This document shows positions 2,034 through 20,810 of a stretch of 23,430 bases of DNA, piece by piece. Source of the DNA: a virus (lineage: Duplodnaviria > Heunggongvirae > Uroviricota > Caudoviricetes); IMG/VR virus record IMGVR_UViG_2675903330_000005, positions 1 to 23,430 of that record. The stretch is one strand, 5' to 3'. The notes under the pieces were generated by a model. That model was given only the letters and a program-made list of their open reading frames with translations. It searched no databases and was not told the DNA's origin. Made by a program: the position numbers and the translations under genes. Numbering within the stretch: position 1 is the stretch's first letter; each line of letters begins with the position of its first letter.

Positions 2034-2105
2034 TATGGTGTTCACAAAATACAAACGATCCGTATTCGTCCTGATTAATCATCATTAAACGAGGAATGTT
2101 GCATC

Positions 2106-2327
2106 ATGAGACCTAACATTTCAATCACTCTTACCACCCCTCATGTGACTATTGAACGCTATAGCGAGCTGACAGGGCTATCCATCGATACCATCAATGA
2201 CATGTTGGCTGATGGACGCCTTATCCGTCACCGACTGCGCAAAGATAAAAAACGCGAAAAAGTGATGATCAACATAGCAGCAATGACCGTTGATGCGCTT
2301 TCAGAATGCAATCTAAACCTTAATTAG
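2106..2327 (+). CDS. apl: Apl/Cox-type excisionase and transcriptional regulator (small HTH protein)
   Basis: 73-aa protein, first gene of the rightward operon opposite cI; HTH-like segment [23 protein letters not shown]; positional equivalent of 186 apl / P2 cox. Confidence 0.6.
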
Positions 2328-2359
2328 TTCGATTCTGAAATACATCAGAGGCATTGACC

Positions 2360-2869
2360 ATGTTTGATTACCAAGTTTCCAAACATCCACATTTTGATGA
2401 AGCCTGTCGTGCATTCGCATTGCGCCACAACCTGGTGCAACTGGCAGAACGTGCTGGCATGAATGTGCAGATTCTGCGGAACAAGTTGAACCCAGCGCAA
2501 CCTCATTTATTAACCGCACCAGAAATCTGGCTGCTTACCGATCTGACTGAAGATTCAACGCTGGTAGATGGTTTTCTGGCTCAGATTCACTGCCTGCCAT
2601 GCGTACCGATTAATGAGGTGGCAAAAGAGAAACTGCCACATTACGTCATGAGTGCAACCGCAGAGATCGGGCGTGTTGCTGCAGGTGCGGTATCTGGCGA
2701 TGTAAAAACCAGTGCAGGTCGTCGTGATGCTATCAGCAGCATTAACTCTGTAACACGACTGATGGCGTTGGCTGCTGTTTCATTGCAGGCCCGTTTACAG
2801 GCTAACCCTGCGATGGCGAGTGCAGTTGATACCGTGACTGGCCTCGGTGCTTCATTCGGTTTGCTGTGA
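2360..2869 (+). CDS. cII: CII-type lysogeny establishment activator (phage 186 CII-like)
   Basis: Sequence [72 protein letters not shown] closely matches the 186 CII protein as I recall it; ATG at 2360 preceded by an AGAGG SD. Confidence 0.85.
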
Positions 2870-3910: not shown

Positions 3911-4764
3911 GCACCATCCTGAAATGGGCGGGTAATAAAACCGCCATTATGTCCGAACTGAAAAAATACCTTCCTGCTGGCCCGCGACTGGTTGAACCTT
4001 TCGCGGGTTCTTGTGCTGTGATGATGGCGACGGATTACCCCAGCTATCTGGTTGCGGATATTAATCCTGATTTAATCAACCTCTATAAAAAGATTGCCGC
4101 TGATTGCGAAGCGTTTATATCTCGTGCCAAAGTTTTATTTGAGGAAGCAAACAGTGAGCTGGCTTATTACAACATAAGACAGGAGTTTAATTACTCAACT
4201 GAAATTACTGATTTCATGAAGGCGATATATTTCCTGTATCTCAATCGTCACGGTTACCGTGGTTTATGTCGCTATAACAAGAGCGGGTATTTCAACATTC
4301 CCTACGGTAATTATAAAAATCCGTATTTCCCTGAAAAAGAAATTCGCGCATTTGCAGAGAAAGCCCAGCGGGCAACGTTTATCTGCGCGAGCTTTGATGA
4401 AACGCTGGCGATGCTGCAGGTGGGGGATGTGGTGTATTGCGATCCGCCGTATGACGGTACGTTTTCCGGCTATCACACTGATGGTTTCACTGAAGATGAC
4501 CAGTATCACCTGGCATCCATTCTTGAACATCGGTCATCAGAAGGACATCCGGTCATTGTTTCTAACAATGACACATCCCTGATTCGTTCGCTGTATCGCA
4601 ATTTTACTCACCACTATATCAAGGCAAAACGCAGCATCGGCGTGTCAGCTGGCGAGGGTAAATCTGCAACAGAAATCATTGCTGTTTCCGGGCCGAGCTG
4701 CTGGTTGGGATTTGATCCTTCGCGTGGCGTGGATAGTTCTGCCGTGTACGGAGTGTGTGTATGA
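3907..4764 (+). CDS. dam: DNA adenine methyltransferase (Dam-like, GATC N6-adenine MTase)
   Basis: N-terminal LKWAGNK and FAGSCAV (AdoMet-binding) motifs plus catalytic DPPY motif (..[11 protein letters not shown]..); start ATGA-overlaps the upstream stop. Confidence 0.9.
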
Positions 4765-7266: not shown

Positions 7267-7286
7267 TACTGTAAATATAAACAGTG
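7267..7286. promoter_or_regulatory. Candidate LexA (SOS) box: TACTGTAAATATAAACAGTG (CTGT-N8-ACAG)
   Basis: Match to the LexA consensus TACTGT(AT)4ACAGTA core, overlapping a -10-like TATAAA/TATACT region about 45 bp upstream of a small ORF with a consensus SD. Confidence 0.55.
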
Positions 7287-7327
7287 GTTGTGCATACAGT
7301 GTTGCTTGTGGTGTCATAGGAGGAAAG

Positions 7328-7498
7328 ATGCAGGACTATTTTTTGGAGTCTTTGAAGCTCCAGCGCATTGATTTTTTTCTTAAGCTTGTGGCGGCTAGTG
7401 AGTGTAGTGATGAAGAGAAGGGGCTGGCTCTGCAGTGGGTTTCTGAGTTGACTGATGAGCTGATGGCGAGAATTCGCGCTCATGAATACAACCACTAG
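7328..7498 (+). CDS. Small 56-aa ORF downstream of the LexA box; candidate SOS-inducible Tum-like antirepressor or small regulator
   Basis: ATG preceded by a perfect AGGAGG SD at optimal spacing; not in the supplied ORF track (under 60 aa); translates to MQDYFLESLKLQRIDFFLKLVAASECSDEEKGLALQWVSELTDELMARIRAHEYNH. Confidence 0.35.
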   Translation: MQDYFLESLKLQRIDFFLKLVAASECSDEEKGLALQWVSELTDELMARIRAHEYNH

Positions 7499-7671
7499 AT
7501 GGATCTTCCCAGTAGTTTTTCGAAACTGAAAACAACCGAGTGAAAGTTACGACACTTGAGATTTTCACTTGGGTTATAATCAGAATACTTGTTTTCGTCC
7601 ACAAATGTACATGCCATGCATTAATGTGGTGATAGCTTTCAATTTTTACTAAATGGTTTCAATTGCTTCTT

Positions 7672-8217
7672 ATGAATCATGTAATGTTAGATATAGAAAC
7701 ATTGGATGTTGAAAAAACAGCTTATATCCTTTCAGTTGGTGCGGCTTTTTTCGTGCCGGAGACTGGCGAGATTGGTCCGGGTTTCTATCAAGTTATTTCG
7801 CTTGATCATGAACAAGCAGGCAGAACCATTGCCCCCTCTACTGTAAAGTGGTGGATGAATCAAAGTACTGAAGCTAAAAACGAAAATTTTGATGGCACTA
7901 AGGACCTTTTAGAGGTTCTGAATGAATTTGTGGCATTTATTCTTCATAATCGTACTGGCCGAGTAAAAGTGTGGGGAAACGGGAAAGAGTTTGACTGCAC
8001 GATCATGCATCATGCCCTGTTACAGGCGGGTCTGGATTGCCCATGGTCATTCAGAGATACTCTTGACGTTAGAACCATCTTAGCACTTGGTGAAAGCAAA
8101 GGAATTTTTTCTCATGCTGATAAAAATTTCACTGGCATTAGGCACACAGCATTCGATGATGTTTTATTTCAGATCGCACAGGTTTCTCACATCTATATGA
8201 ATTTAAATAAAAAATAA
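7672..8217 (+). CDS. DEDDh-type 3'-5' exonuclease (DnaQ-like fold), about 181 aa
   Basis: Exo I motif VMLDIETLD, Exo II-like ..VWGNGKEFDCTIM.., Exo III motif ..HTAFDDVLFQI..; first gene of the AT-rich cargo cassette; start codon uncertain (7663 TTG / 7672 ATG / 7684 ATG). Confidence 0.7.
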   Translation: MNHVMLDIETLDVEKTAYILSVGAAFFVPETGEIGPGFYQVISLDHEQAGRTIAPSTVKWWMNQSTEAKNENFDGTKDLLEVLNEFVAFILHNRTGRVKVWGNGKEFDCTIMHHALLQAGLDCPWSFRDTLDVRTILALGESKGIFSHADKNFTGIRHTAFDDVLFQIAQVSHIYMNLNKK

Positions 8218-8232
8218 ATATAGGACTTAGCT

Positions 8233-9144
8233 ATGGATTGCTTAGATGTAACCTATTGGACTGAGCTAGATGTTTTCGCACAGTATCCTGTTGGTGCTCG
8301 CTCTAAGGCATTGGTTATTTCCCCTGATGTTGCCCCCCATGGTATCAAAGCATCGTGGCCGTATCTTTTTAAGAGAAGCATTAAAAAATACCCAGATCAA
8401 TTTTGGTGTGAGATCGTTGCCTACAGGATTGGATTGCAGCTTGGTTTTAATGTCCCCAAAGCAGTTCCTTCGTTAAAGACTAATGATTTGGGGCATACGT
8501 TTTGCGGGGCCCTCATTGAGTGGTTTCATCATAAAGATTATGAGAAATTTGCTCCCGCTGGTGATTACTTTGTTCGAAGAGATCCAAATTTTGATCGTGA
8601 GAAAGGAGCTAAGCATTCCATTGAAGGGCTGAGGATTATCGCGAAAGCTCTTAAAGTTGACTATGTTGAGTGGTTGGAGAATATGGCTCTCTTTGACGCA
8701 GTAATAGGTAATACAGATAGACATCAAGAAAACTGGGGGTTTATCTTCTCACCTTTAACCAGCGAGTGTCAGCTTGCACCATTTTTCGATAATGGTACGA
8801 GCTTATGCTACGAACGTTTTCCGGAACATGTTGCTGATTGGACCGATCATAGACTCAGGGAGCATGTTAGCCGGGGAAAGCATCATTTGCGTAAGACTCT
8901 GGGCAAAGATGAGTATCAGAGATTAGGTCATTTAGAGTTAATCAAAGAACTTTGTGATAAAAAAGAAGAATTAAAACAGCGGGTAGCTGAAAGACTGGCT
9001 CGTTTGAACCATGACTTTTGGGACTCAACTTTTGCGGAGTTGACGGAAATAAACTGCCCTGTTCCGCTGACTAGAGAACGTGCTGCATGGATTGTTCGTG
9101 TAACAAACATGCGTATTGAACTGATTAAAGGTGTTACTTCATGA
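8233..9144 (+). CDS. HipA-family serine/threonine kinase, short HipT-like form lacking the HipA N-terminal subdomain
   Basis: P-loop-like ..VGARSKALVIS.. (cf. HipA VAGAQEKTAL), ..WCEIVAYRIGLQLGFNVP.. (cf. HipA YCLLLAKELGLNVP), catalytic loop ..VIGNTDRHQENWGF.. (cf. HipA IGATDGHAKNFS) and Mg-binding ..LAPFFDNGTS.. (cf. HipA LTPFYDIIS); 303 aa. Confidence 0.8.
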   Translation: MDCLDVTYWTELDVFAQYPVGARSKALVISPDVAPHGIKASWPYLFKRSIKKYPDQFWCEIVAYRIGLQLGFNVPKAVPSLKTNDLGHTFCGALIEWFHHKDYEKFAPAGDYFVRRDPNFDREKGAKHSIEGLRIIAKALKVDYVEWLENMALFDAVIGNTDRHQENWGFIFSPLTSECQLAPFFDNGTSLCYERFPEHVADWTDHRLREHVSRGKHHLRKTLGKDEYQRLGHLELIKELCDKKEELKQRVAERLARLNHDFWDSTFAELTEINCPVPLTRERAAWIVRVTNMRIELIKGVTS

Positions 9145-9845
9145 CTATCTTAATAGAAAAAATTCCCATGCCAAGTAGGCTCTTACTGACATGGCAACCG
9201 ACCGACGGCGGCTCTCGCTATGTCGTTGGTGAACTTCTTCAAGATGAGTCTGAAGGCTACGAGTTTAATTATCTTACGGATAGCAAAGATTTTGCTAAAG
9301 CTGTGGATAAAGGCTTTCACGGTTTTCCTGCTTTTGACATAAAAGTTACGACTCATCGCAAAGACGTTATGCAAACCTTTTCAAGAAGGTTACCCTCTAG
9401 GAAAAGAGAAGATTTTGCCGATTACTTGCTGACGTTTCGTCTTCCTGCTGATTTTAGAGAGAATGACTTCGTTTTGCTCGCTTGTACTGGCGGAAAAGTG
9501 GCTAGTGATGGTTTTTATTTTGTCCCAGACTTGTCTTCTATTCGGCCACCTTTTGATTATGTCATGGAGGTCGCCGGAACGAGACACATGATTAAGGAAG
9601 GGCGTCTAGCTCTTGACGAGATATCAATTGGTGATGAAGTCATATTGCGCAATGAAGATACCAATACTGTTGATCCGCTGGCCATATTAGTAACGAAAAA
9701 CGACAATCATCTAGGATATGTCAACAAGGCATTGTGCGCCGCATTACGAGATCTTGGTAAAAACCATGATATCAGTGGAGTGGTCGTACGTAAAAATGGC
9801 TCTTCGGATAGGCCTTTGATTTATGCAAAAGTATCTGTTAGATGA
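9141..9845 (+). CDS. Two-domain protein: N-terminal HipA-N-subdomain-like (HipS-like) region fused to a C-terminal HIRAN-like domain
   Basis: N-term ..LLLTWQPTDGGSRYVVGELLQDESEGYEFNY.. resembles the HipA N-terminus (..LVTWMNNQRVGELTKLANGAHTFKY..); C-term ..DEVILRNEDTNTVDPLAILVTKNDNHLGYVNKALCAAL.. fits the HIRAN pattern; start ATGA-overlaps the kinase stop. Confidence 0.55.
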   Translation: MTILIEKIPMPSRLLLTWQPTDGGSRYVVGELLQDESEGYEFNYLTDSKDFAKAVDKGFHGFPAFDIKVTTHRKDVMQTFSRRLPSRKREDFADYLLTFRLPADFRENDFVLLACTGGKVASDGFYFVPDLSSIRPPFDYVMEVAGTRHMIKEGRLALDEISIGDEVILRNEDTNTVDPLAILVTKNDNHLGYVNKALCAALRDLGKNHDISGVVVRKNGSSDRPLIYAKVSVR

Positions 9846-10155: not shown

Positions 10156-10181
10156 GGCCCGCCAGAACTGGCGGGCTTTTG
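10156..10181 (+). terminator. Rho-independent terminator closing the cargo cassette
   Basis: GC-rich inverted repeat GCCCGCC-agaact-GGCGGGC followed by TTTTG. Confidence 0.6.
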
Positions 10182-10225
10182 CTCATGTCATGCAGGTGCA
10201 TGAAAACCACTACATAAAGCGGGCA

Positions 10226-10244
10226 GGCGTGGCGGGGATACGAG
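10226..10244. other. Candidate cos site (19-nt cohesive end): GGCGTGGCGGGGATACGAG followed by CGCGCGC
   Basis: Matches the P2 cohesive end GGCGAGGCGGGGAAAGCAC at 14 of 19 positions and the 186 sequence as I recall it at about 15 of 19; lies between the post-gpA cargo region and gene Q, where cos sits in P2. Confidence 0.6.
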
Positions 10245-10305
10245 CGCGCGCAAACATGTTTACTTGCAATTAATGTAGATATATTCTGAAATTGATAACT
10301 TACAC

Positions 10306-10515
10306 ATGAAAGGAGACGTGAGAGTGGCAAAATATACACCGGGCCAGAAAGTAAAACATGCAACAGGACATGGTCCAATCATGGTAATTGATCACTACCA
10401 ATCGGCTACAATGGCAGTTTGTACGTGGTTTATTGGTGCTAAGAACCAGCGCGGAGTTTTTCATGAAGATACTCTAGTTTTATTTGTTCCAAAAGCTGAG
10501 AGTGATGATGAATGA
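10306..10515 (+). CDS. YodC/DUF2158-like small protein; start may be GTG at 10324 (63 aa)
   Basis: ..KYTPGQKVKHATGHGPIMVI....GVFHEDTLV.. resembles E. coli YodC (..GGPRMIV....EAFHETELV..); AGGAG SD 8 nt upstream of GTG 10324. Confidence 0.55.
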   Translation: MKGDVRVAKYTPGQKVKHATGHGPIMVIDHYQSATMAVCTWFIGAKNQRGVFHEDTLVLFVPKAESDDE

Positions 10516-10774
10516 TTCTCTGATAAAAATAGTTGACTGGATGGTTAATACCACTCGTTCTAATGGTGTGTTGTATCAGTCCGAGGTTGTTGAATTTCTA
10601 ATCAATGACTTTGGGGACGAGTTCATCAAAACTAATGAGAATGGTAATTACGCTATAAGCAGTACTGTGCTAGCAAATTTTAGAAAGGCTAGCAAAGACG
10701 ATATAGTTTGGGATCGTGAACAGTTAGCTTGGCGTTTACGCAATGAAAGCGATTTACCCGGACGGATGCAGTAG
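10508..10774 (+). CDS. Hypothetical 89-aa protein, overlapping the upstream small gene's stop
   Basis: ORF whose ATG (10505/10508) overlaps the stop of the YodC-like gene; no recognisable motif. Confidence 0.4.
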   Translation: MNDSLIKIVDWMVNTTRSNGVLYQSEVVEFLINDFGDEFIKTNENGNYAISSTVLANFRKASKDDIVWDREQLAWRLRNESDLPGRMQ

Positions 10775-10790
10775 AGATAATACAGAGAAT

Positions 10791-10831
10791 AGTGAACAAG
10801 CTGATAATTTCAACTTGTTCACTTCTTTTTT
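10791..10831. terminator. Hairpin terminator between the convergent small-gene pair and gene Q (possibly bidirectional)
   Basis: Perfect 10-bp inverted repeat AGTGAACAAG...CTTGTTCACT with 13-nt loop, followed by TCTTTTTT on the + strand. Confidence 0.5.
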
Positions 10832-11873
10832 ATGACTGATTATTTTCTAAGCCATAATATTCAAATTTGACTACCTCTTCATCTAACCATTCATTAATTT
10901 CGGCAATGCGTTTTTGTAAAGGCATCAGTTCATTCCGAACAAATACCCGGCTGGCTTTCTCCACATCCCCAAACCCCCCTACATTATTAGGCATAATCCC
11001 CATCATCTGCGGCGGCACTCGGTGTGCTGCCATCATGTCGTCCCGGCTCACGTTCTTGATATTCAGAAACTCATCCTTCGCCGCGACTTCTGACAACGGG
11101 ATGATCTGAAGCCCGTCCTTTTTGCCGTTAGGCGAGTACATAAACAGATTGCGGAAGTTACCTGGTCCTTTGGCGCTTTTCATCGCATTGCGGAGGTTGT
11201 TCACATCCTCCTGGTTTTGCGCGGCATCGGTCATGTACATGATGAAGCCTGCATGACTGCCGTTAATGTAATACTTTCGACGGAACAGCGTGGCGGACTC
11301 GTTGAGCAGGGCAGACGGAATGGCAGAAAGATAACCGGGCAGGCCGTAGATCTCCTGATTAATATCCGGTTCCATTAGATGAAAAATGCTGCCTTTCGTG
11401 AACTGATACGGCTGGGTTGTCATACCGTATTGCACAAACCAGTAGGTATCCAGGTCTAACCCGCGTCGGGTGTATTTTGCCAGCGCAGGCTCAAGGGCGA
11501 TAACTTCACCGAATCGGTTCGTGCGTTTCTCCAGGTAGGCGTTACCAAATACCAGATAGTCCTGCACAAAACGCGAAAAAGCCTGCTGGCTGAGCAGCGG
11601 GTGAGGGATATAGGTGCTGGTCAGAATGTTGCACTTTACTGCAATCGGTGAGCTGTGGTGAACGGCGGCGCGGAATGTTCGCGCCAGTCCGTCAAAACTT
11701 ACGGGTGGCTCATACCAGCGATCCGTCTGTACGCATTCCACATAGTCCAGCAGTTCGCGGCGGTCAAGTACTGGAATGGGATCACCGAAGCTGAATGCTT
11801 CGGCTGAAGTTTGGCTTTTATGCTTGAGCTGATTCGTCGCCGCAGCGCGGTTTTTCTTACTCTTTCCCATCAA
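10830..11873 (-). CDS. Q: Capsid portal protein gpQ
   Basis: 347 aa, leftward, ATGA-coupled to P; position and size match P2 Q. Confidence 0.9.
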   Translation of the reverse strand: MMGKSKKNRAAATNQLKHKSQTSAEAFSFGDPIPVLDRRELLDYVECVQTDRWYEPPVSFDGLARTFRAAVHHSSPIAVKCNILTSTYIPHPLLSQQAFSRFVQDYLVFGNAYLEKRTNRFGEVIALEPALAKYTRRGLDLDTYWFVQYGMTTQPYQFTKGSIFHLMEPDINQEIYGLPGYLSAIPSALLNESATLFRRKYYINGSHAGFIMYMTDAAQNQEDVNNLRNAMKSAKGPGNFRNLFMYSPNGKKDGLQIIPLSEVAAKDEFLNIKNVSRDDMMAAHRVPPQMMGIMPNNVGGFGDVEKASRVFVRNELMPLQKRIAEINEWLDEEVVKFEYYGLENNQS

Positions 11874-13636
11874 AAAATCTCCACAATATTGCTGGTATTG
11901 GCGGACTCGCCCTGCAGCGGTTCGTTAAACAGTGCGTGCATCGTTGCCCAGGCCAGATCGGCGTGGCTGGCTTCTTCGCTGCGGCTGGCTTCATAGGTCG
12001 GGCGGTTGCCACTGGCGGTGGTGGCGCGACGGATTGCCATAAATGACTGCGCTATGTCGGTGTGTCCGGCGTCAAACTCCAGACGACGGTGACTGATAAT
12101 GTCGTAGGCTTTGAGTACCAGGGCGTTTTTAACGTTGGGGTTGTAGACAAACTCCCGGACGGCAGGAAAGAACGCTTTCACGTTCTCGTAAACCCCGTGA
12201 CCGACACCTGTCGAGTCGATGCCGATATAGGTCACGTTGTACTGTTCGGTCAGTTTTTTGATGGCGTCAGCCTGGGCGCGGAAGTCCATCCCGCGCCACT
12301 GGTGACGCTCAAGAATGCGAAACTTACCGCCTGGCACGGCTGGCGGTGCCACCACCACGCATCCGGCGCTGTCGCCGTTCTGCGTACCTTTTGCCGGGTC
12401 ATAACCGATCCACACCTCGCGCCAGCCAAACGGGCGCAGGGCCAGTGCATGAAAGTCGGTCCAGACTTCCCAACTGTCCACCATGCACGCCTGCAGTTCG
12501 CTGAGCGGGAACACGGACGCGAGATCGTCCACGAACTCGCACATCAGCAGGTTCTGGTATTCGTCCGGGCTGTACTCCATGCGTAGCTGGTCGAGGTCGA
12601 ACAGGTTACAGCCGCCGCGCACCGCATCTTCCACGGTGACTATCTGGCGGTATTGCCCGTCTGCGCACAGCAGGCCGGGGGCCAGATTGCTGTGGGACAG
12701 GTCGATGTCCACCTTGTCGGCTTTGTTGCGTCCACGGTTGAACAGCGCACCGGACCAGAACGGATAAGCACTGTGTGTCAGGCTGGATGGCGTGGAAAAA
12801 TAGGTTTGTCGCCATTTTTTGTGAATAGCCATACCGGAAGCCACTTTGCGCAGCTCCTGAAATTTCGGTATCCAGAAATATTCATCCAGATACAGGTTGC
12901 CGTGATAACTCTGGGCAGTGCGGGCATTGGTGCCGAGGAAGTAAAGCGTGGCACCGTTAGGAAGCACCATCGGATCACCTTTCAGCTCCACCTCCACTTC
13001 TTTGGCGAAGTCGATGATGTACTGCTTAAAGACGTGGGCCTGTGCCTTGCTGGCGGAAAGGAAAATCTGGTTACGTCCGGTCAGCAGGGCGTCAATCAGG
13101 GCTTCACGGGCAAAATAGAAGGTTGCGCCGATCTGGCGTGACTTCAGCAGGTTGCGGATGCGGTTGGTTTTTCCGGCTTCCCACCAGTGGCGCTGGTAGT
13201 TGAACATGGAGGAATGGAAGATTTCTTCCAGCTTCTCAATCTGTTCATCGGTGAAAACATTCTTTTCCGGCTGACGGCGTGGGCCTTTGTTGCGGTTGGC
13301 GACGTTAGGGTTTAAGTCGGCTTCGTTGCCGCCATTGTTAAACTTGCCGATCCGCGCGTGGCGCTCCGACTGGCGCGCCAGCAGGTCAATCTCTTTGAAA
13401 TCTTTCCCTTCTTTGTGCTCCTTCATAATGAGCTGGCAGTAGCGTGCGGCGGTGGTGAGCTGCATCTGATCCAGCGGCCCATAGTCACCCCACTTGTCGC
13501 GTTTTTTCCAGCTGTGAACGGTTGCAACTTTCTCGCCCAGCATTTCAGCAATGCGGGCGACGCGGTATCCCTGAAAGTACAGCAGCATGGCCTGCCGACG
13601 GGGATCGAGATCTGCGGGTGTCAGTGTGGTGTTCAT
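11870..13636 (-). CDS. P: Terminase large (ATPase) subunit gpP
   Basis: 588 aa (P2 P is about 590 aa); divergent from the O-N-M-L operon as in P2. Confidence 0.9.
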   Translation of the reverse strand: MNTTLTPADLDPRRQAMLLYFQGYRVARIAEMLGEKVATVHSWKKRDKWGDYGPLDQMQLTTAARYCQLIMKEHKEGKDFKEIDLLARQSERHARIGKFNNGGNEADLNPNVANRNKGPRRQPEKNVFTDEQIEKLEEIFHSSMFNYQRHWWEAGKTNRIRNLLKSRQIGATFYFAREALIDALLTGRNQIFLSASKAQAHVFKQYIIDFAKEVEVELKGDPMVLPNGATLYFLGTNARTAQSYHGNLYLDEYFWIPKFQELRKVASGMAIHKKWRQTYFSTPSSLTHSAYPFWSGALFNRGRNKADKVDIDLSHSNLAPGLLCADGQYRQIVTVEDAVRGGCNLFDLDQLRMEYSPDEYQNLLMCEFVDDLASVFPLSELQACMVDSWEVWTDFHALALRPFGWREVWIGYDPAKGTQNGDSAGCVVVAPPAVPGGKFRILERHQWRGMDFRAQADAIKKLTEQYNVTYIGIDSTGVGHGVYENVKAFFPAVREFVYNPNVKNALVLKAYDIISHRRLEFDAGHTDIAQSFMAIRRATTASGNRPTYEASRSEEASHADLAWATMHALFNEPLQGESANTSNIVEIF

Positions 13637-13682
13637 GGCACAAACCTACAGCCTTGAATGAAGGCTTTCCCCGCCTGCGGTT

Positions 13683-13700
13683 TGTGTGGTTGTCGGTACA
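13683..13700. promoter_or_regulatory. Candidate Ogr-dependent late promoter element (TGT-N12-ACA) in the P/O divergent region
   Basis: TGTGTGGTTGTCGGTACA fits the TGT-N12-ACA dyad bound by Ogr/Delta-type activators, about 80-95 bp upstream of the O start. Confidence 0.45.
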
Positions 13701-13778
13701 AATACCGCGCATTGTTTCACTGCCCCCATCACCGCAACCATAAGGCTCCAGTAAGTTTTTTCTAACGGAGCACGGCTC

Positions 13779-14612
13779 ATGACAGTGAAAGCAAAGCGTT
13801 TTCGCATCGGGGTGGAAGGTGCCACCACCGACGGACGCGAAATCCAGCGTGAATGGCTGGAACAGATGGCAGCCAGCTACAACCCGGCGGTGTATACCGC
13901 GCTGATTAACCTTGAGCACATCAAGTCTTATCTGCCGGACAGCACCTTTAACCGCTACGGCAAGGTGACGGCGCTGTTTGCTGAAGAAATCACGGAAGGT
14001 CCGTTGGCAGGCAAGATGGCGCTGTATGCCGACGTTGAGCCAACGGAATCCCTGGTGGAACTGGTGAAAAAAGGCCAGAAATTATTCACCTCTATGGAAG
14101 TCAGCCCGAAGTTTGCTGATACGGGCAAAGCCTACCTGGTCGGCCTGGCTGCCACTGATGACCCTGCCAGTCTGGGCACTGAAATGCTGACATTCAGCGC
14201 CAGTGCAGCCCATAACCCGCTGGCAAACCGCAAGCAGAATCCCGCCAATCTCTTTACCGCCGCAGAGGAAACGGTGATCGAACTGGAAGAAATCCAGGAG
14301 GACAAGCCGTCCCTGTTTGCCCGCGTCACGGCGCTGTTCACCAAAAAAGAGCAGTCCGACGATGCCCGGTTCTCTGATGTGCATAAGGCCGTGGAGCTGG
14401 TCGCCACTGAGCAGCAAAACCTGAGCGCACGCACCGAAAAATCCCTGTCTGAGCAGGAAGAACGTCTGTCTGAGCTGGAGACTGCCCTGCAGGCACAGCA
14501 GACCGCCTTTAACGAACTGGTGAATAAGCTGAGTCATGAAGACAGCCGCCAGGACTACCGCCAGCGTGCAACAGGCGGTAACGCCCCCGCTGACACTCTG
14601 ACCAATTGCTGA
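13779..14612 (+). CDS. O: Capsid scaffolding protein gpO
   Basis: 277 aa; ..FRIGVEGATTDGREI..INLEHI..YLVGLAATDDPASLGTE.. matches the P2 O pattern. Confidence 0.85.
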   Translation: MTVKAKRFRIGVEGATTDGREIQREWLEQMAASYNPAVYTALINLEHIKSYLPDSTFNRYGKVTALFAEEITEGPLAGKMALYADVEPTESLVELVKKGQKLFTSMEVSPKFADTGKAYLVGLAATDDPASLGTEMLTFSASAAHNPLANRKQNPANLFTAAEETVIELEEIQEDKPSLFARVTALFTKKEQSDDARFSDVHKAVELVATEQQNLSARTEKSLSEQEERLSELETALQAQQTAFNELVNKLSHEDSRQDYRQRATGGNAPADTLTNC

Positions 14613-14628
14613 TGGAGCACAAAACCCG

Positions 14629-15687
14629 ATGAAGAAGAATACCCGCTTTGCTTTTAACGCTTACCTGCAGCAGCTGGCGCGTCTGAACGGTGTGGCCGTT
14701 GAAGAACTGTCCAGCAAGTTCACTGTAGAGCCGTCTGTGCAGCAGACGCTGGAAGATCAGATCCAGCAGTCCGCCGCATTCCTGACGCTGATTAACGTCA
14801 CGCCAGTGACTGAGCAGTCTGGTCAGTTGCTGGGGCTGGGTGTTGGCAGCACCATTGCCGGAACCACTGATACCACAGCTAAAGAGCGTGAGCCTGTCGA
14901 TCCGACGCTGATGGTCGATGTGGAATATAAATGCGAGCAGACTAACTTTGACACGGTGCTGACCTACGCGAAGCTGGACCTGTGGGCGAAGTTTCAGGAT
15001 TTCCAGGTGCGTATCCGTGACGCCATCGTAAAACGTCAGGCACTGGACCGCATCATGATCGGCTTTAACGGCGTGAAGCGTGCGAAAACCTCCAACCGTA
15101 GCGAAAGCCCGCTGCTGCAGGATGTGAACAAAGGCTGGCTGCAGAAAATCCGTGAAGATGCACCGGATCACGTCATGGGCAGCACCACCACGGGCGGTGA
15201 AACCACACCGGGTGCGGTGAAAGTCGGTAAAGGTGGCGAATATGCCAACCTGGACGCCGTGGTGATGGATGCCGTCAATGAGCTTATCGACGTGGTCTAC
15301 CAGGACGATGACGATCTGGTGGTGATTTGCGGTCGTGAACTGCTGTCTGACAAGTATTTCCCACTGGTCAACAAAGAGCAGGAAAACAGTGAAAAACTGG
15401 CTGCCGATATGATCATCAGCCAGAAACGCATGGGTGGCCTGCAGGCCGTGCGTGCGCCGTTCTTCCCGCCGAATGCGCTGCTGATCACCCGTCTGGATAA
15501 CCTGTCCATCTACTGGCAGGAAGACACCCGCCGCCGTTCAGTTATCGACAACCCGAAACGTGACCGGATTGAAAACTTTGAATCCGTTAACGAAGCCTAT
15601 GTGGTTGAGGATTACCGCTGCGCCGCACTGGTGGAAAACATCCAGATTGGCGATTTCAGCGCCGCTGCAGCAGAAGCCGGAGCGTAA
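14629..15687 (+). CDS. N: Major capsid protein gpN
   Basis: 352 aa; N-terminus ..TRFAFNAYLQQLARLNGV.. matches the P2 N start pattern; follows O. Confidence 0.9.
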   Translation: MKKNTRFAFNAYLQQLARLNGVAVEELSSKFTVEPSVQQTLEDQIQQSAAFLTLINVTPVTEQSGQLLGLGVGSTIAGTTDTTAKEREPVDPTLMVDVEYKCEQTNFDTVLTYAKLDLWAKFQDFQVRIRDAIVKRQALDRIMIGFNGVKRAKTSNRSESPLLQDVNKGWLQKIREDAPDHVMGSTTTGGETTPGAVKVGKGGEYANLDAVVMDAVNELIDVVYQDDDDLVVICGRELLSDKYFPLVNKEQENSEKLAADMIISQKRMGGLQAVRAPFFPPNALLITRLDNLSIYWQEDTRRRSVIDNPKRDRIENFESVNEAYVVEDYRCAALVENIQIGDFSAAAAEAGA

Positions 15688-15690
15688 CCC

Positions 15691-16341
15691 ATGAGCCTGA
15701 GTCCCGCACGGCAGCATCGCCTGCGCGTTCAGGCTGAACAGGCCGCCCGCGAGGGCGGCAGCGTTCGCCACGCGTCGGGCTATGACCTGATGCTGCTGCA
15801 ACTGGCGGAAGACCGCCGCCGTCTCAAGGGCGTTCAGTCCACGGTCAAAAAAGCGGAAATTAAGGTGGAACTGCTGCCGAAGTACGCCGCCTGGGCAGAG
15901 GGTGTCCTGACTGCCGGAGGCGCACAGCAGGATGACGTGCTGATGTACGTGATGCTGTGGCGCATTGATGCCGGAGATTATGCCGGGGCGCTGGAGATCG
16001 GGCGTCACGCCCTGCGTCATGGCTGGGTGATGCCGTTGGGTAACCGCAACGTGCAGACCGTGCTGGCAGAGGAAATGGCAGATGCAGCCCAGAGCGCAAT
16101 GCTTGCCGCCACCGGCTTTGATGCCGATCTGTTGCTGCAGACGCTGGAGCTGACAGACGGTATGGATATGCCGGACCAGTCACGGGCGCGTCTGCATAAA
16201 GCGATTGGCGCTGTTCTGAGTGAAAACAATCCGGCGTTCGCCCTTAATCATCTCAACCATGCGCTACAGCTCGATCCCCGCTGTGGCGTGAAAAAAGACA
16301 AACAGCAGCTGGAGCGCAGACTGCGCAATGACAGCCGCTGA
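15691..16341 (+). CDS. M: Terminase small (endonuclease) subunit gpM
   Basis: 216 aa, immediately after N as in P2. Confidence 0.8.
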   Translation: MSLSPARQHRLRVQAEQAAREGGSVRHASGYDLMLLQLAEDRRRLKGVQSTVKKAEIKVELLPKYAAWAEGVLTAGGAQQDDVLMYVMLWRIDAGDYAGALEIGRHALRHGWVMPLGNRNVQTVLAEEMADAAQSAMLAATGFDADLLLQTLELTDGMDMPDQSRARLHKAIGAVLSENNPAFALNHLNHALQLDPRCGVKKDKQQLERRLRNDSR

Positions 16342-16436
16342 CAGAACGTGCCCCCGCGCACGGGCGGCACGGGGTGGCGAAAGGCACTGCCACATCAAAA
16401 CCCCGTCCACCGCCCTCTATTTCAGGAGAAAGCAGC

Positions 16437-16901
16437 ATGAAGTTTGTTGCGCCAGAACAGGCACCGGAACAGGCGGAAATCATCAGGAATACGCCGTTCT
16501 GGCCTGATGTGGACCTGTCGGAGTTTCGCAGTGTCATGCGCACTGACGGCACGGTGACGCAGCCGCGTTTAAAGCAGGTTGCGCTGTCGGCAATTTCGGA
16601 GGTCAACGCAGAGCTGTATGAGTTTCGCAGACGTCAGCAGATGCTGGGGTATGCGTCGCTGGCTGAGATTCCGGCGGAACATCTGGACGGGAAAAGTGAG
16701 CGCATTCAGCACTATTTCAACGCGGTTTACTGCTGGGCACGCGCCATGCTCAACGAACGATACCAGGACTATGACGCCACGGCATCCGGTGTGAAGCGAG
16801 GCGAGGAACTGGCGGAATCCAGCGGTGATTTGTGGCGTGACGCCCGCTGGGCCATCAGCCGGGTGCAGGATGCGCCGCACTGCACAGTGGAGCTTATCTG
16901 A
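16437..16901 (+). CDS. L: Head completion/stabilisation protein gpL (start at internal ATG with CAGGAG SD)
   Basis: Position after M; stop overlaps X start; the track ORF's N-terminal extension lacks an SD. Confidence 0.75.
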   Translation: MKFVAPEQAPEQAEIIRNTPFWPDVDLSEFRSVMRTDGTVTQPRLKQVALSAISEVNAELYEFRRRQQMLGYASLAEIPAEHLDGKSERIQHYFNAVYCWARAMLNERYQDYDATASGVKRGEELAESSGDLWRDARWAISRVQDAPHCTVELI

Positions 16902-17104
16902 TGAAAGTGCGTGCGCATCAGTATGACACGGTGGACGCGCTTTGCTGGCGTCATTACGGGCGCACGCAGGGTGTCACGGAGCAGGTACTGAAGGCAAATC
17001 CGGGGCTTGCCGAATATGGCCCCTTTTTACCTCACGGGCTGCAGGTGGAGCTGCCGGACATTCCGACCACCACCACCGTGCAGACCGTCCAGCTATGGGA
17101 CTGA
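16901..17104 (+). CDS. X: Tail protein gpX (LysM-like)
   Basis: 67 aa, same length as P2 X; ..VDALCWRHYG.. motif. Confidence 0.85.
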   Translation: MKVRAHQYDTVDALCWRHYGRTQGVTEQVLKANPGLAEYGPFLPHGLQVELPDIPTTTTVQTVQLWD

Positions 17105-17107
17105 ATT

Positions 17108-17323
17108 ATGACGCTTGAGCGAATCAGCGCCTTTATCACGTACTGCATCGCCGTTGTGCTGGCCTGGCTGGGCGATTTGTCCATCAAGGATGCCTCAACG
17201 CTGGGCGGCCTGATGATTGGTGTGCTGATGCTGGCTATCAACTGGTACTACAAACACAAAGCCTACCAGCTTCTGCGCGACGGGCAGATCTCGCGGGAGG
17301 ACTATGAATCCATCAATCGTTAA
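17108..17323 (+). CDS. Y: Holin (P2 gpY position), 71 aa with two hydrophobic segments
   Basis: Membrane-spanning segments ..ISAFITYCIAVVLAWLG.. and ..LGGLMIGVLMLAINWYY.. and a charged C-terminus, directly upstream of the lysozyme. Confidence 0.65.
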   Translation: MTLERISAFITYCIAVVLAWLGDLSIKDASTLGGLMIGVLMLAINWYYKHKAYQLLRDGQISREDYESINR

Positions 17324-17930
17324 ACGCTGCCTTGTCGGGGCCGTGCTGGCTATTGCTGCCACGCTGCCGGGTTTTCAGCAGCTTCACACCTCCGTGGAGG
17401 GGCTGAAACTGATTGCCGATTACGAAGGCTGTCGTCTGCAGCCGTATCAGTGCAGCGCGGGTGTCTGGACCGACGGCATTGGTAATACATCTGGCGTCAT
17501 TCCAGGCAAAACCATTACGGAACGACAGGCAGCGGAAGGGCTGATCTCCAACGTGCTACGTGTGGAGCGGGCGCTGGAAAGATGTGTGAAGCAACAGCCG
17601 CCACAAAAGGTGTATGACTCGGTGGTGTCGTTTGCCTTCAACGTGGGAACGGGCAATGCCTGCAGTTCCACGCTGGTGAAATTACTCAATCAGCGGCGCT
17701 GGGCGGATGCGTGCCGACAGTTGCCGCGCTGGGTTTATGTAAAAGGTGTGTTTAATCAGGGGCTGGATAGGTGCTCTGCTCAGTCCGATAGGTCTTGTGG
17801 TTACTGCACTGGCGGGCGTGGCGCTGGTTGTCTGGAAATACTGGCAACCCATCACCGCATTTCTCGGTGGCGTGGTGGAAGGATTCAAAGCGGCGGCAGG
17901 TCCCATCAGTGCAGCGTTCGAACCGCTTAA
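17304..17930 (+). pseudogene. K: Endolysin gpK (lysozyme family), 3'-truncated at a deletion junction near 17760; ORF continues out of register into tape-measure DNA
   Basis: N-terminal roughly 150 aa look like a phage lysozyme (..EGLKLIADYEGCRLQPYQCSAGVWTDGIGNT..); the distal roughly 55 aa are low-complexity read-through overlapping the T fragment in another frame. Confidence 0.7.
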
Positions 17931-18687
17931 GCCCGTGTTCCAGTGGATTGGCGACAAAGTGCAGGCGCTGTGGGGCTGGTTTACTGATCTGCTGACGCCC
18001 GTTAAGTCGACCTCTGCCGAACTGCAGAGCGCAGCGGCAATGGGGCGGCGATTCGGGGAGGCACTGGCGGAAGGGCTGAATATGGTCATGCATCCGCTGG
18101 ACTCCCTGAAATCCGGCGTTTCCTGGTTGCTGGAGAAGCTCGGCATTGTCAGTAAAGAGGCCGCAAAGGCAAAACTGCCGGAAAGCGTGACGCGTCAGCA
18201 ACCTGCGACGGTGAATGCAGACGGTAAAGTGATGATGCCATCGGGTGGTTTTCCATCATGGGGATATGGCTTTGCGGGGATGTATGACAGCGGCGGGTAT
18301 ATCCCGCGCGGGCAGTTTGGCATCGTCGGTGAAAACGGGCCGGAAATTGTTAACGGCCCGGCAAATGTGACCAGCCGGAGAAATACAGCTGCACTGGCTG
18401 CCGTTGTTGCCGGAATGATGGGCGTTGCTGCCGCGCCAGCAGAGCTTCCACCGTTGCACCCTTTGGCACTTCCCGCGAAAGGTGGAGAAGCAATTGTGAG
18501 TCGCGCAGCCACTGTGCCGCTCGTTCAACGGATTGAGGCACCGACGCAGATCATCATTCAGACGCAGCCAGGACAAAGTGCGCAGGATATTGCGCGGGAG
18601 GTGGCACGCCAGCTTGATGAACGTGAACGCAGGCTGAAGGCAAAAGCCAGGAGTAACTACAGCGATCAGGGGGGATACGACGCATGA
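17746..18687 (+). pseudogene. T: Tape-measure protein gpT, C-terminal fragment only (about 310 of about 800 aa); 5' part removed by the deletion
   Basis: Hydrophobic TMP-like segment GWIGALLSPIGLVVTALAGVALVVW and C-terminal ..GGYIPRGQFGIVGENGPEIVNGP..; stop overlaps the U start; no credible start or SD. Confidence 0.8.
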
Positions 18688-19169
18688 TGATGGTGCTGGG
18701 ATTGTACGTGTTTATGCTGCGCACCGTTCCGTATCAGGAACTGCAGTATCAACGCAGCTGGCGACATGCGGCAAACAGTCGGGTAAACCGACGTCCGTCC
18801 ACGCAGTTTCTGGGACCGGAAAACGACATGCTGACGCTTTCCGGTGTTCTTATGCCGGAAATAACAGGCGGCAGGCTGTCGTTGCTGGCACTGGAGCAGA
18901 TGGCAGAACAGGGGAAAGCATGGCCCCTGATTGAAGGCAGCGGCACGATTTACGGCATGTATGTGATTGAGGGACTGAATCAGACTAAAACGGAGTTTTT
19001 CCGCGATGGTATGCCGCGCCGGATTGAGTTCACCCTGTCGCTCAAACGGGTGGATGAATCCCTGTCCGATATGTTCGGTGATCTCAGTGCGCAGCTGAAT
19101 AATTTGCAGGATACGACAACGTCTGCCTTAAGCGATATCAGTAAAACGGTGGGAGGGCTGCTGTCGTGA
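18684..19169 (+). CDS. U: Tail protein gpU
   Basis: 161 aa (P2 U is about 159 aa), between T and D. Confidence 0.85.
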   Translation: MMMVLGLYVFMLRTVPYQELQYQRSWRHAANSRVNRRPSTQFLGPENDMLTLSGVLMPEITGGRLSLLALEQMAEQGKAWPLIEGSGTIYGMYVIEGLNQTKTEFFRDGMPRRIEFTLSLKRVDESLSDMFGDLSAQLNNLQDTTTSALSDISKTVGGLLS

Positions 19170-20266
19170 ATTTCAGCTCTGAACTGCTTAACAAAGGCAA
19201 CAAAACTCCGGCATTCAGCATCAGTATTGAGGGTAAGGATATCACCACTGTGCTGGATAACCGCCTGATGAGTCTGACGCTGACGGACAATCGGGGCTTT
19301 GAAGCGGACCAGCTTGATCTGGAGCTGGATGACGCCGACGGAAAAATCGTGCTGCCGCGCCGTGGTGCGGTCATTACGCTGGCGTTGGGCTGGAAGGGGC
19401 AGTCGCTTTTCCCGAAAGGAGCATTCACGGTGGACGAGATTGAACACACTGGCGCACCGGACCGCCTGACTATCCGGGCGCGAAGTGCTGATTTTCGTGA
19501 AACCCTGAATACCCGCCGTGAAAAATCGTGGCACAAGACCACCGTTGGGGAAGTGGTGAAGGAAATAGCTGCGCGGCACAAACTGAAGATGGCATTGGGT
19601 GAAGACCTGTCGGATAAACCTGTGGAGCATATAGACCAGACCAATGAGAGTGACGGCAGTTTTCTGATGCGGCTGGCGCGCCAGTACGGTGCTATTGCGT
19701 CGGTGAAAAATGGCAATCTGTTATTCATCCGGCAGGGACAGGGTAAAAGCGCCAGCGGTAAACCACTACCGGTTATCACTATCACACGTAAGGACGGCGA
19801 CAGTCACCGCTTTACCCTGGCAGATCGCGGAGCCTACACGGGCGTAATTGCCAGCTGGTTGCATACCCGCGAACCCGCGAAGAAAGAAAGCACCACGGTG
19901 AAGCGTAAGCGCAGGACTAAGAAGCAGAAGAAAGAGCCGGAAGCGAAGCAGGGCGATTACCTGGTGGGTACAGATGAAAACGTGCTGGTACTTAATCGCA
20001 CCTATGCCAACCGGAGCAACGCCGAACGGGCGGCGAAAATGCAGTGGGAACGCCTGCAACGTGGCGTTGCGTCATTCTCGCTACAACTGGCAGAAGGTCG
20101 GGCGGATCTCTACACGGAAATGCCAGTGAAAGTCAGAGGCTTTAAACAGCCGATAGATGATGCGGAATGGACTATTACCACCCTGACGCATACTGTCAAT
20201 CCGGATAACGGTTTTACGACCAGTCTGGAGCTTGAAGTGAAGATTAATGATTTCGAAATGGAATGA
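19166..20266 (+). CDS. D: Tail protein gpD (late control gene D)
   Basis: 366 aa; GTG start with GGGAGGG SD; follows U and precedes ogr as in P2. Confidence 0.85.
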   Translation: MNFSSELLNKGNKTPAFSISIEGKDITTVLDNRLMSLTLTDNRGFEADQLDLELDDADGKIVLPRRGAVITLALGWKGQSLFPKGAFTVDEIEHTGAPDRLTIRARSADFRETLNTRREKSWHKTTVGEVVKEIAARHKLKMALGEDLSDKPVEHIDQTNESDGSFLMRLARQYGAIASVKNGNLLFIRQGQGKSASGKPLPVITITRKDGDSHRFTLADRGAYTGVIASWLHTREPAKKESTTVKRKRRTKKQKKEPEAKQGDYLVGTDENVLVLNRTYANRSNAERAAKMQWERLQRGVASFSLQLAEGRADLYTEMPVKVRGFKQPIDDAEWTITTLTHTVNPDNGFTTSLELEVKINDFEME

Positions 20267-20356: not shown

Positions 20357-20575
20357 ATGATGATTTGCCCACTGTGTGGAAGTGCCGCCCATACTCGCAG
20401 CAGTTTTCAGGTATCTTCATTGACCAAAGAGCGTTACAACCAGTGCCAGAACATTAACTGCAGCCATACTTTTGTTACCCATGAAACTTTTGTTCGTTCG
20501 ATTGCAACGCCAAAAGAGTCAAATCCGGTTCAGCCGCATCCAATGAAATCAGGACAGGTGGCGCTCTCTCTTTGA
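20357..20575 (+). CDS. ogr: Ogr/Delta-family zinc-finger late-gene transcription activator
   Basis: ..MICPLCGSAAHTRSS....KERYNQCQNINCSHTF.. matches the P2 Ogr CxxC-N22-CxxxxC zinc-finger pattern. Confidence 0.85.
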   Translation: MMICPLCGSAAHTRSSFQVSSLTKERYNQCQNINCSHTFVTHETFVRSIATPKESNPVQPHPMKSGQVALSL

Positions 20576-20652: not shown

Positions 20653-20698
20653 AACAAAAAACCCATCAACCTTGAACCGAAATGGCGGGGTTGATGGG
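20653..20698 (-). terminator. Rho-independent terminator read on the minus strand (likely the ybjL terminator)
   Basis: Perfect 10-bp inverted repeat CCCATCAACC / GGTTGATGGG with 17-nt loop, preceded on + by AACAAAAAA (a U-run on the minus strand). Confidence 0.5.
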
Positions 20699-20810
20699 CT
20701 CCACAAAATGGGGACATCAAAGAAAAGCAGTGGCACTAATTAAGACTGATGCCCTGCGGAAAAGTTCTGCGGTTGTGCAAAAAAATTTCATTTTCAGGGC
20801 AACTTCAGTT

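What the first reader, a model, noticed from the sequence alone, without database searches (positions are those of the whole stretch)
10226..17760. Head-only P2-like element with cos retained: possible helper-dependent packaging
The prophage keeps apparently intact int, the cI/apl/cII switch, gpA, a candidate cos, portal, both terminase subunits, scaffold, major capsid, head-completion protein, holin, and ogr with a late-promoter dyad. It lacks every tail gene. If induced it might replicate and package DNA into tail-less heads, which could be completed by tails from a co-resident intact P2-like phage. Alternatively it is simply a decaying prophage whose cargo is under selection.
Basis: inference. 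Interest (0 to 1): 0.55.

Follow-up and report, generated by a model that had tools for sequence, protein, structure and literature searches.

The report
Tail-deleted defective P2-like prophage
This is an ordinary defective P2-family prophage of E. coli that lost most of its tail and lysis genes in one deletion; the deletion joins two TA dinucleotides at a spot in the tape-measure gene that many other remnants of this phage family also use, and that recurrence is unexplained.

Summary
The window is a P2-family (Elveevirus-like) prophage of E. coli GCA_001284305.1, integrated in the 3' end of rybB next to ybjL. Int, cI/apl/cII, gpA, cos, portal, both terminase subunits, scaffold, capsid, head-completion protein, holin and ogr are full length, with no indels against intact relatives. 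It does not lack every tail gene: X, U and D are intact and the last 306 codons of T remain. One deletion of 11.3-12.4 kb (junction at 17768-17769) runs from endolysin codon 155 to T codon 720. It removes lysA/B/C and R, S, V, W, J, I, H, G, FI, FII, E.

The element is 21.3 kb, about 65% of its parent, cannot make tails and probably cannot lyse. The same junction occurs in two other lineages that later lost their head genes, so nothing suggests the head module is maintained. Helper-dependent packaging is possible in principle but unsupported. This is a decaying prophage.

Unexpectedly, 10 of 14 fully resolved junctions in remnants of this family join TA to TA. Two TA sites 12 nt apart in T, one of them this window's, recur with more than 25 different partners. 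I found no mechanism for this.

The parts
1..1017 (-). Integrase (338 aa as annotated in relatives; the ORF is open to 1095). The attL core lies 603 nt left of window position 1 in the source contig.
   Evidence: PHROG integrase. 100% identical to the DS26-1 protein. attL core AACAAAAAACCCAT found in L022.
1411..2869 (.). 186-type lysis/lysogeny switch: cI (1411-1986, minus strand), apl/cox (2106-2327, plus) and cII (2354-2869, plus).
   Evidence: PHROG hits. Pfam Phage_CI_repr plus Phage_CI_C. 100% identical to DS26-1.
4761..7175 (+). Replication endonuclease gpA (804 aa). The ori nick region lies inside it at about 6775-6805 (GCGCCCCTTGGACTCGTGGCAATAAC).
   Evidence: PHROG match for nicking at the origin of replication. 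The ori is placed by similarity to the annotated P2 and 186 ori.
7269..7498 (+). Perfect LexA-box-like CTGT-N8-ACAG (7269-7284) followed by a 56-aa ORF (7328-7498). The DinI/Tum-like gene that follows this ORF in relatives is absent.
   Evidence: Relatives with the DinI-like gene.
7663..9845 (+). Cargo in the gpA-cos hotspot: an Rv2179c-like 3'-5' exonuclease, a HipA_C-like protein and a HIRAN protein. The last two match the PADLOC candidate defence system PDC-M03 (A and B).
10166..10260 (+). cos region. The 19-nt cohesive-end sequence GGCGTGGCGGGGATACGAG is at 10226-10244.
   Evidence: Aligns with the annotated cos of Cartapus, P2 and 186.
10830..13636 (-). Portal Q (10830-11873) and large terminase P (11870-13636).
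   Evidence: Full length with no gaps against L001 and Cartapus.
13683..13700 (.). TGT-N12-ACA dyad between the divergent P and O genes. This is the position of the Ogr-type activator site in P2.
   Evidence: P2 annotation. The assignment rests on position only.
13779..17323 (+). Late operon: scaffold O, capsid N, small terminase M, head completion L, tail protein X and holin Y.
17304..17930 (+). Truncated SAR-type endolysin K' (codons 1-155 of 170) fused out of frame to 53 codons read from T sequence.
   Evidence: The Pfam Phage_lysozyme match ends at residue 156.
17768..17769 (.). Deletion junction: one shared TA (GGGGCTGGATA|GGTGCTCTGC). It corresponds to hotspot R2 in gene T.
17770..20266 (+). 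Remaining tail genes: T' (last 306 codons, to 18687), U (18684-19169) and D (19166-20266). They have lost their own F promoter and now lie downstream of the O operon.
   Evidence: P2 operon annotation.
20357..20575 (+). ogr/delta-type late activator (72 aa as annotated in relatives).
20653..20731 (-). rybB sRNA gene. Its 3' end (20653-20666) is the attR core AACAAAAAACCCAT and marks the right end of the prophage.

Best explanation
The window holds a defective prophage of the P2 family (Peduoviridae, closest to genus Elveevirus) with a 186-type switch. It is integrated in the 3' end of the sRNA gene rybB, between rcdA and ybjL, in E. coli.

Shown: a single illegitimate deletion between two TA dinucleotides joined endolysin codon 155 to tape-measure codon 720. 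It removed about 11.3-12.4 kb: the endolysin C-terminus, lysA, lysB, lysC, R, S, V, W, J, I, H, G, FI, FII, E/E' and the first 70% of T. Everything else is intact.

Inferred: the 21.3-kb element could still be repressed, excise, replicate and make heads. It cannot build tails and probably cannot lyse the cell, so it is not an autonomous phage. It is one snapshot in the stepwise decay of this prophage family, not an evolved tail-stealing satellite. Any transfer would need ordinary complementation by a related, co-induced or superinfecting phage, and would be handicapped by the short DNA.
For: - Source and site. The window is 100% identical to GCA_001284305.1 contig CXZM01000012.1. The att cores are at window -603 and 20653, and rybB overlaps attR.
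- One deletion only. There are three collinear blocks against the intact DS26-1 prophage, with zero gaps inside the blocks and a 2-nt overlap at the junction. The same result holds against PCP07083. The list of lost genes comes from the RefSeq annotation of both.
- Retained genes are intact, and cos is conserved.
- Rarity. None of 5,426 complete E. coli genomes carries the junction. There are six protein variants of the fusion on about nine contigs in the 15-billion-protein collection.
- Further decay behind the same junction. L005 carries dam|X and D-internal deletions. L024-L027 carry a P|Y deletion.
- Many other remnants at this site have other internal deletions.
- Size. The element is 21,256 bp against 33,035 bp for the intact PCP07083 prophage.
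Against: - No inactivating mutation exists in any retained head, replication or integration gene, so partial function cannot be ruled out from sequence.
- No near-identical intact parent was found. The left arm is 99.85% identical to DS26-1, the head region at best 98.1% to any complete genome, and the right arm 99.9% to other strains. The age of the deletion is therefore unknown, and the intact state of the head genes could mean recent origin or could mean selection.
- The rest of the source genome could not be searched for a helper prophage.
Confidence: 0.85

Rival explanations
1. A working helper-dependent element. On induction it excises, replicates, packages its own DNA from cos into its own heads, and uses the tails and lysis functions of a co-resident or superinfecting P2-family phage. 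This is the lifestyle of capsid-forming PICIs.
For: attL, attR, int, apl, gpA with its ori, cos, Q, P, O, N, M, L and ogr are all intact. P2-type heads and tails assemble separately, and P4 shows that heads filled with another genome can join P2 tails (PMC6893505, PMC7552001). cf-PICIs show that tail piracy exists in E. coli (10.1101/2025.02.11.637232).
Against: - The DNA is 64-65% of the parental length, with no size-redirecting gene. cos packaging requires a second cos near the terminase when the head is full, and off-size genomes package poorly (PMC6893505). A dimer would be about 129%.
- Two of the three lineages with this junction later lost the head genes.
- The junction is absent from 5,426 complete genomes.
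- Leftover X, T', U and D and an out-of-frame K'-T' fusion look like debris, not design.
- The DinI/Tum-like gene of relatives is missing.
- Holin without a working endolysin or spanins gives no autonomous release.
Confidence: 0.1
2. A domesticated remnant kept for what it gives the host: superinfection immunity from cI, the PDC-M03-type candidate defence cargo with its exonuclease, and possibly ogr. The head genes are passengers that have not yet been deleted.
For: The cargo matches PADLOC candidate system PDC-M03 A and B. It sits in the gpA-cos hotspot, which in relatives holds other defence-like genes: KAP NTPase, Cap4 nuclease, AAA_21 with SIR2, AAA_21 with RloB or HNH. A LexA-like box lies upstream. 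Remnants at this site typically keep the regulatory arm and/or the T'-U-D-ogr end.
Against: No test of selection was possible. Cargo differs among remnants, so no single cargo explains retention. Keeping the cargo is equally expected for a recent neutral deletion.
Confidence: 0.3
3. The junction is an assembly artefact and the tail genes are really present.
For: The source is a short-read draft assembly.
Against: The identical junction is assembled independently from other read sets: ERR134555, SRR6072361, SRR25337974, SRR8313119, SRR13318464 and ERZ27246519. A 2-nt overlap cannot create a de Bruijn-graph join. Junctions at the same T site occur in a complete genome, NCTC9041.
Confidence: 0.02

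Closest known systems
Intact Elveevirus / P2-family prophages at the rybB-ybjL site (E. coli DS26-1, PCP07083; phages Cartapus, 4LV2017, KP12)
   Same: Same gene order, att site, cos, 186-type switch, gpA, head operon and ogr. Nucleotide identity is 95-99.9% over all retained DNA.
   Different: Lacks 11.3-12.4 kb carrying the lysis accessory genes and 15 tail genes. The endolysin and T are truncated.
Capsid-forming PICIs (cf-PICIs), which practise 'tail piracy'
   Different: - cf-PICIs are an evolved, widespread family with HK97-type packaging modules and small capsids matched to their genome.
- This element is a rare deletion derivative with P2-type head genes sized for about 33 kb.
- It uses the phage's own regulators.
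- It carries leftover tail genes.
- Its sister lineages lose the head genes.
Satellite P4 with helper P2
   Same: A P2-type cos, and dependence on P2-family tails and lysis functions if the element were mobilised.
   Different: P4 encodes no head genes and redirects the helper's capsid to a small size with Sid (PMC7552001). This element encodes a full head module and no size determinant.
Defective prophage pools complemented by co-resident phages (E. coli O157 Sakai)
   Same: Prophages with deletions can still excise, replicate and sometimes be packaged and transferred with help from other prophages (PMC2669165, abstract).
   Different: Those cases are lambdoid and were shown by experiment. 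Nothing has been tested here.
P2 remnant of E. coli K-12 and B (ogrK plus a gpD fragment)
   Same: A P2-family remnant that keeps the D-ogr end next to attR, as many remnants at the ybjL site do. This is from my own knowledge (Slettan et al. 1992) and was not checked here.
   Different: It is far more reduced and sits at a different att site.

Membership tests
Peduoviridae (P2-family) prophage, Elveevirus-like | Divergent Q-P and O-N-M-L-X-Y-K late gene order with P2-type portal, terminase, scaffold and capsid families | tested here: met
   PHROG hits. 45-63% amino-acid identity to P2 and 186, and 95-99.8% to Cartapus.
Peduoviridae (P2-family) prophage, Elveevirus-like | 19-nt cos with conserved flanks | tested here: met
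   Alignment with the annotated cos of Cartapus, P2 and 186.
Peduoviridae (P2-family) prophage, Elveevirus-like | gpA rolling-circle initiator with an internal ori, and an ogr/delta zinc-finger late activator | tested here: met
Peduoviridae (P2-family) prophage, Elveevirus-like | Complete contractile-tail and lysis gene set (a functional phage) | tested here: not met
   lysA, lysB, lysC, R, S, V, W, J, I, H, G, FI, FII, E and the N-terminal part of T are absent. K is truncated.
Defective (cryptic) prophage | Bounded by attL and attR, and missing essential genes compared with intact relatives at the same site | tested here: met
cf-PICI (capsid-forming satellite) | No tail genes at all | tested here: not met
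   X, U and D are intact, and a T fragment remains.
cf-PICI (capsid-forming satellite) | HK97-type packaging module that forms small capsids matched to the island's genome | tested here: not met
   The head genes are P2-type and 95-99.8% identical to those of a 33-kb phage. The element is 64-65% of that length. Capsid size itself was not measured.
cf-PICI (capsid-forming satellite) | A conserved, widely distributed family | tested here: not met
   The junction is in 0 of 5,426 complete genomes and on about nine contigs in the large collection. The sister lineages with the junction lack the head genes.
cf-PICI (capsid-forming satellite) | Release of DNA-filled tail-less capsids, and transfer that depends on tails | not testable with these tools
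   Needs induction, DNase protection and transduction assays.
P4-like satellite | sid/psu/delta/epsilon genes and alpha primase, with no structural genes | tested here: not met
   No such genes among the PHROG or Pfam hits. A full head module is present.

The most novel reading that the evidence does not exclude
The window's junction may be one product of an undescribed TA-specific cut-and-rejoin process that dismantles P2-family prophages.

- Of 14 fully resolved DNA junctions in remnants of this family, 10 join TA to TA and keep one TA. About 22 further junctions, inferred from fusion proteins, look the same.
- Two TA sites 12 nt apart in gene T (R1 CCATA|TCTGG, and R2 TGTTA|GGTGC, which is window 17768-17769) were used with more than 25 different partners, as right ends and as left ends.
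- Several partner TA sites were also used more than once.
- One junction keeps both TAs (CCTA|TAGA), as expected from filled-in 2-nt TA overhangs.

This points to a transposase-like or nuclease-like activity, or to cycles of insertion, adjacent deletion and excision by a TA-targeting insertion sequence, rather than random microhomology.
Probability: 0.3. Interest if true: 0.7.

Novelty: new member of a known kind. Interest (0 to 1): 0.35.

Why it matters
The element itself matters little. It is one more defective prophage. The attractive idea that it steals tails like a cf-PICI has no support beyond intact head genes.

What could matter is the pattern behind its junction. If prophages of this common E. 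coli family are taken apart by a TA-specific process with preferred sites, that would name a mechanism for deletional decay of prophages. It would also explain why remnants so often keep the T'-U-D-ogr end, and it would give a sequence signature for finding the enzyme responsible.

Tried and rejected
For the TA-to-TA junctions and the R1/R2 hotspots I tested and rejected these explanations:
1. gpA (HUH) nicking. The ori nick region of P2, 186 and this phage is CCT(C/T)|GGA, not TA.
2. Self-targeting CRISPR. A 75-nt query across R1/R2 found only T genes in 5,426 genomes. The weakest hit was another R2 deletion junction, and there was no 32-nt spacer-like hit.
3. A hairpin or cruciform at R1/R2. 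Folding gave z = 0.03.
4. A local sequence motif. An orientation-aware PWM of 24 used TA sites is no more informative than random TA sites (7.64 against 7.28 +/- 0.38 bits; 33 of 200 controls were as high). The apparent TA|ACC or TA|CC context is the codon boundary NNT|ACC.
5. The family's Gin-like invertase. In Cartapus its native crossover core is TT inside a gix-like 26-mer, and the closest relatives of the window have no invertase gene.
6. A selection boundary that lets only right ends accumulate at R1/R2. R1 and R2 are also used as left ends.
7. Rpn nucleases, which show no sequence specificity (PMC5350276).
8. IEE, which acts through IS3-family elements and is not TA-specific. I read only titles and abstracts from the search.

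Searches that led nowhere:
- The junction pattern in GTDB species representatives and in IMG/VR gave 0 hits.
- A protein search for T fragments ending at R1/R2 to find an inserted IS gave only 9 hits and no IS.
- Literature searches for TA-dinucleotide prophage deletions found nothing relevant.
- Rfam found only rybB.

I could not decide whether the K|T junction in the three lineages is shared by descent or arose repeatedly. The flanking haplotypes differ from 35 nt to the left and from 136-279 nt to the right.


Full report
**What the window is.** The window is 100% identical to contig CXZM01000012.1 of E. coli assembly GCA_001284305.1. It holds a P2-family prophage followed by the host genes ybjL, ybjM and grxA. 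Over the DNA they share, the closest sequenced phages are Klebsiella phages KP12 and 4LV2017 and Escherichia phage Cartapus (genus Elveevirus, family Peduoviridae), at 95-96% nucleotide identity. P2 and 186 are only 45-63% identical in the head proteins. The switch is of the 186 type: cI with Phage_CI_repr and Phage_CI_C domains, apl/cox, and cII.

**Integration site.** The 14-nt att core AACAAAAAACCCAT occurs at 20653-20666, and again 603 nt to the left of the window in the source contig. Rfam places the sRNA gene rybB at 20653-20731 on the minus strand, so the phage integrates in the 3' end of rybB. From core to core the element is 21,256 bp. The intact prophage at the same site in strain PCP07083 is 33,035 bp.

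**Checking the observation.**
- Against the intact DS26-1 prophage the window aligns in three collinear blocks with no gap inside any block. All proteins align end to end. The same is true against phage Cartapus.
- The candidate cos at 10226 is confirmed by homology. GGCGTGGCGGGGATACGAG and its flanks line up with the annotated cos of Cartapus, P2 and 186.
- The claim that the element lacks every tail gene is wrong. X, U and D are intact, and the last 306 codons of the tape-measure gene T remain. P2's annotation lists X, U and D as essential tail genes.

**The deletion.**
- The junction is at 17768-17769: GGGGCTGGATA|GGTGCTCTGC, with TA present at both parental sites.
- It joins endolysin codon 155 of 170 to T codon 720 of 1025. 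It removes 11,255 bp measured against DS26-1, or 12,417 bp measured against PCP07083.
- Lost are the endolysin C-terminus, the lysA-like gene, lysB, lysC, R, S, V, W, J, I, H, G, FI, FII, E/E' and most of T.
- The endolysin reading frame runs on out of frame for 53 codons, to 17930. The Pfam lysozyme match stops at residue 156.
- T', U and D have lost the F-operon promoter and now sit downstream of the O operon (inference from P2's operon map).

**How it would behave (inference).**
- The element should still confer immunity.
- Given an inducing signal, it should excise (int, apl and both att cores are present), replicate (gpA and its ori) and make heads. It cannot make tails. It has a holin but no intact endolysin or spanins.
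- The inducing signal is itself doubtful. A perfect CTGT-N8-ACAG box lies at 7269-7284, after gpA and in front of a 56-aa ORF. The DinI/Tum-like gene that follows that ORF in relatives is missing here and in DS26-1.
- The DNA is 64-65% of the parental length. For cos phages a second cos must be near the terminase when the head is full, and off-size genomes package poorly (PMC6893505). A dimer would be about 129% of the parental length.

**Is the head module maintained?**
- None of 5,426 complete E. coli genomes has the junction. The exact fusion protein and five variants occur on about nine contigs of the large collection.
- Three lineages carry the K|T junction. The window type has intact head genes. 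L005 has a second deletion from dam to X, which removes gpA, cos and all head genes, and a third deletion inside D. L024-L027 have a second deletion from P to Y, which removes O through most of Y.
- So two of three lineages discarded the head genes after, or independently of, the tail deletion. That is what decay predicts, and it is not what a tail-stealing satellite predicts.
- No near-identical intact parent exists among complete genomes. The left arm is 99.85% identical to DS26-1, the head region at best 98.1% to any genome, and the right arm 99.9% to other strains. The deletion cannot be dated, and the intact head genes are uninformative about selection.

**Comparison with known systems.**
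- This element fails the membership tests that could be run. It keeps tail genes. Its head genes are those of a 33-kb phage. It uses the phage's own regulators. It is rare.
- It is not P4-like either.
- It is best filed as a defective Elveevirus-like prophage. Rescue by a helper would be ordinary complementation, as documented for defective lambdoid prophages (PMC2669165).

**An unexpected pattern: how it was found.** Looking up the 270-aa T' ORF showed many other remnants at the same att site. They share the window's T'-U-D-ogr haplotype but have different upstream partners. A protein search with the peptide read from T in the frame the truncated ORFs enter returned 34 fusion ORFs. Their N-terminal parts come from O, N, M, L, K, lysA, S, V, H, FII, E, T and D.

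**An unexpected pattern: what it shows.**
- Mapped on the intact reference, the right ends pile up at two TA dinucleotides 12 nt apart. R1 is CCATA|TCTGG, with at least 11 different partners. R2 is TGTTA|GGTGC, with at least 12 partners, and is the window's own site. The other 15 TA sites in that 470-nt stretch are used rarely or never.
- Nearly all partner sites are also TA.
- At DNA level, 10 of 14 fully resolved junctions are TA-to-TA with one TA kept: K|T, two O|T at R2, T|T, O|T at R6, V|T at R1, Q|FI, P|V, cII|Q and P|Y. One more keeps both TAs. TA is only 3.5% of dinucleotides in this region.
- R1 and R2 also serve as left ends, joined to a TA site in D.
- Several partner TAs were used more than once: O-16996, O-16390, FII-29753, V-22572 and D-35012.
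- A complete genome, NCTC9041, carries an O|T junction at R2.

**What the pattern is not.**
- It is not gpA nicking.
- It does not match a CRISPR spacer.
- It is not a hairpin.
- There is no detectable motif beyond TA.
- It is not the family's invertase, whose native core is TT.
- It is not a one-sided selection boundary.

The junction that keeps both TAs would fit filled-in 2-nt TA overhangs. A TA-specific cut-and-rejoin activity, or insertion, adjacent deletion and excision by a TA-targeting insertion sequence, would fit the data. I found no direct evidence for either, so the mechanism remains open.

**Verdict.**
- The helper-dependent reading is unsupported but not excluded.
- The decay reading is supported.
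- The element is an ordinary new member of a known kind.
- The recurrent TA-to-TA junctions and the R1/R2 hotspots are what deserve follow-up.

Noticed in passing
window 17768-17769; L004 32614-32628 and other sites: Deletion junctions in remnants of this prophage family are mostly TA-to-TA. Two TA sites 12 nt apart in gene T (R1 and R2; R2 is the window's junction) recur with more than 25 different partners, as right ends and as left ends. Several partner TA sites are also reused. The mechanism is unknown.
   Followed up: partly
window 20653-20731 (minus strand): The prophage integrates in the 3' end of the sRNA gene rybB. The 14-nt att core AACAAAAAACCCAT is the end of the rybB terminator, and an intact rybB is rebuilt at attR.
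   Followed up: yes
window 7269-7498: A perfect LexA-box-like CTGT-N8-ACAG precedes a 56-aa ORF. The DinI/Tum-like gene that follows this ORF in relatives (PCP07083, Cartapus, L008) is missing here and in DS26-1. SOS induction of this lineage is therefore doubtful, and the SOS promoter may instead drive the cargo.
   Followed up: partly
window 7663-9845: The cargo between gpA and cos is an Rv2179c-like 3'-5' exonuclease, a HipA_C-like protein and a HIRAN protein. The last two match PADLOC candidate system PDC-M03 A and B. Relatives carry other defence-like genes at this spot: KAP NTPase, Cap4 nuclease, AAA_21 with SIR2, RloB or HNH.
   Followed up: partly
window 10306-10774; L001 10787-13324: A second variable islet lies between cos and the portal gene, here a DUF2158-like ORF and a DUF6953 ORF. 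In DS26-1 an IS66-family element (ISEc47) is inserted about 40 nt to the right of cos.
   Followed up: no
window 1-10286, 10276-17769 and 17770-20650: The prophage is a mosaic. The left arm is 99.85% identical to DS26-1, the head region at best 98.1% to any complete genome, and the right arm 99.9% to yet other strains. This indicates recombination among related prophages.
   Followed up: partly
L016 7193-8929; L017 7906-8929: One remnant lineage has the segment from the O 3' end through N to the M 5' end inverted, between an 8-nt inverted repeat (CAAGCCGG). It also carries an AT-rich insert with a 288-aa ORF. Decay at this site therefore includes inversions as well as deletions.
   Followed up: partly
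L028 13341-13415, 14823-14897 and 14953-15519: Phage Cartapus carries a Gin-like DNA invertase and an invertible tail-fibre segment, with gix-like sites TTCTCGCATACC-TT-GGTTTGGGAGAA. The window's closest relatives lack the invertase.
   Followed up: partly
window 17770-17930 (L004 32318-32788): A second reading frame of gene T is open for about 156 codons. Out-of-frame fusions at R1 and R2 therefore all acquire the same Cys/Arg/Gly-rich C-terminal tail of 53-57 residues.
   Followed up: no
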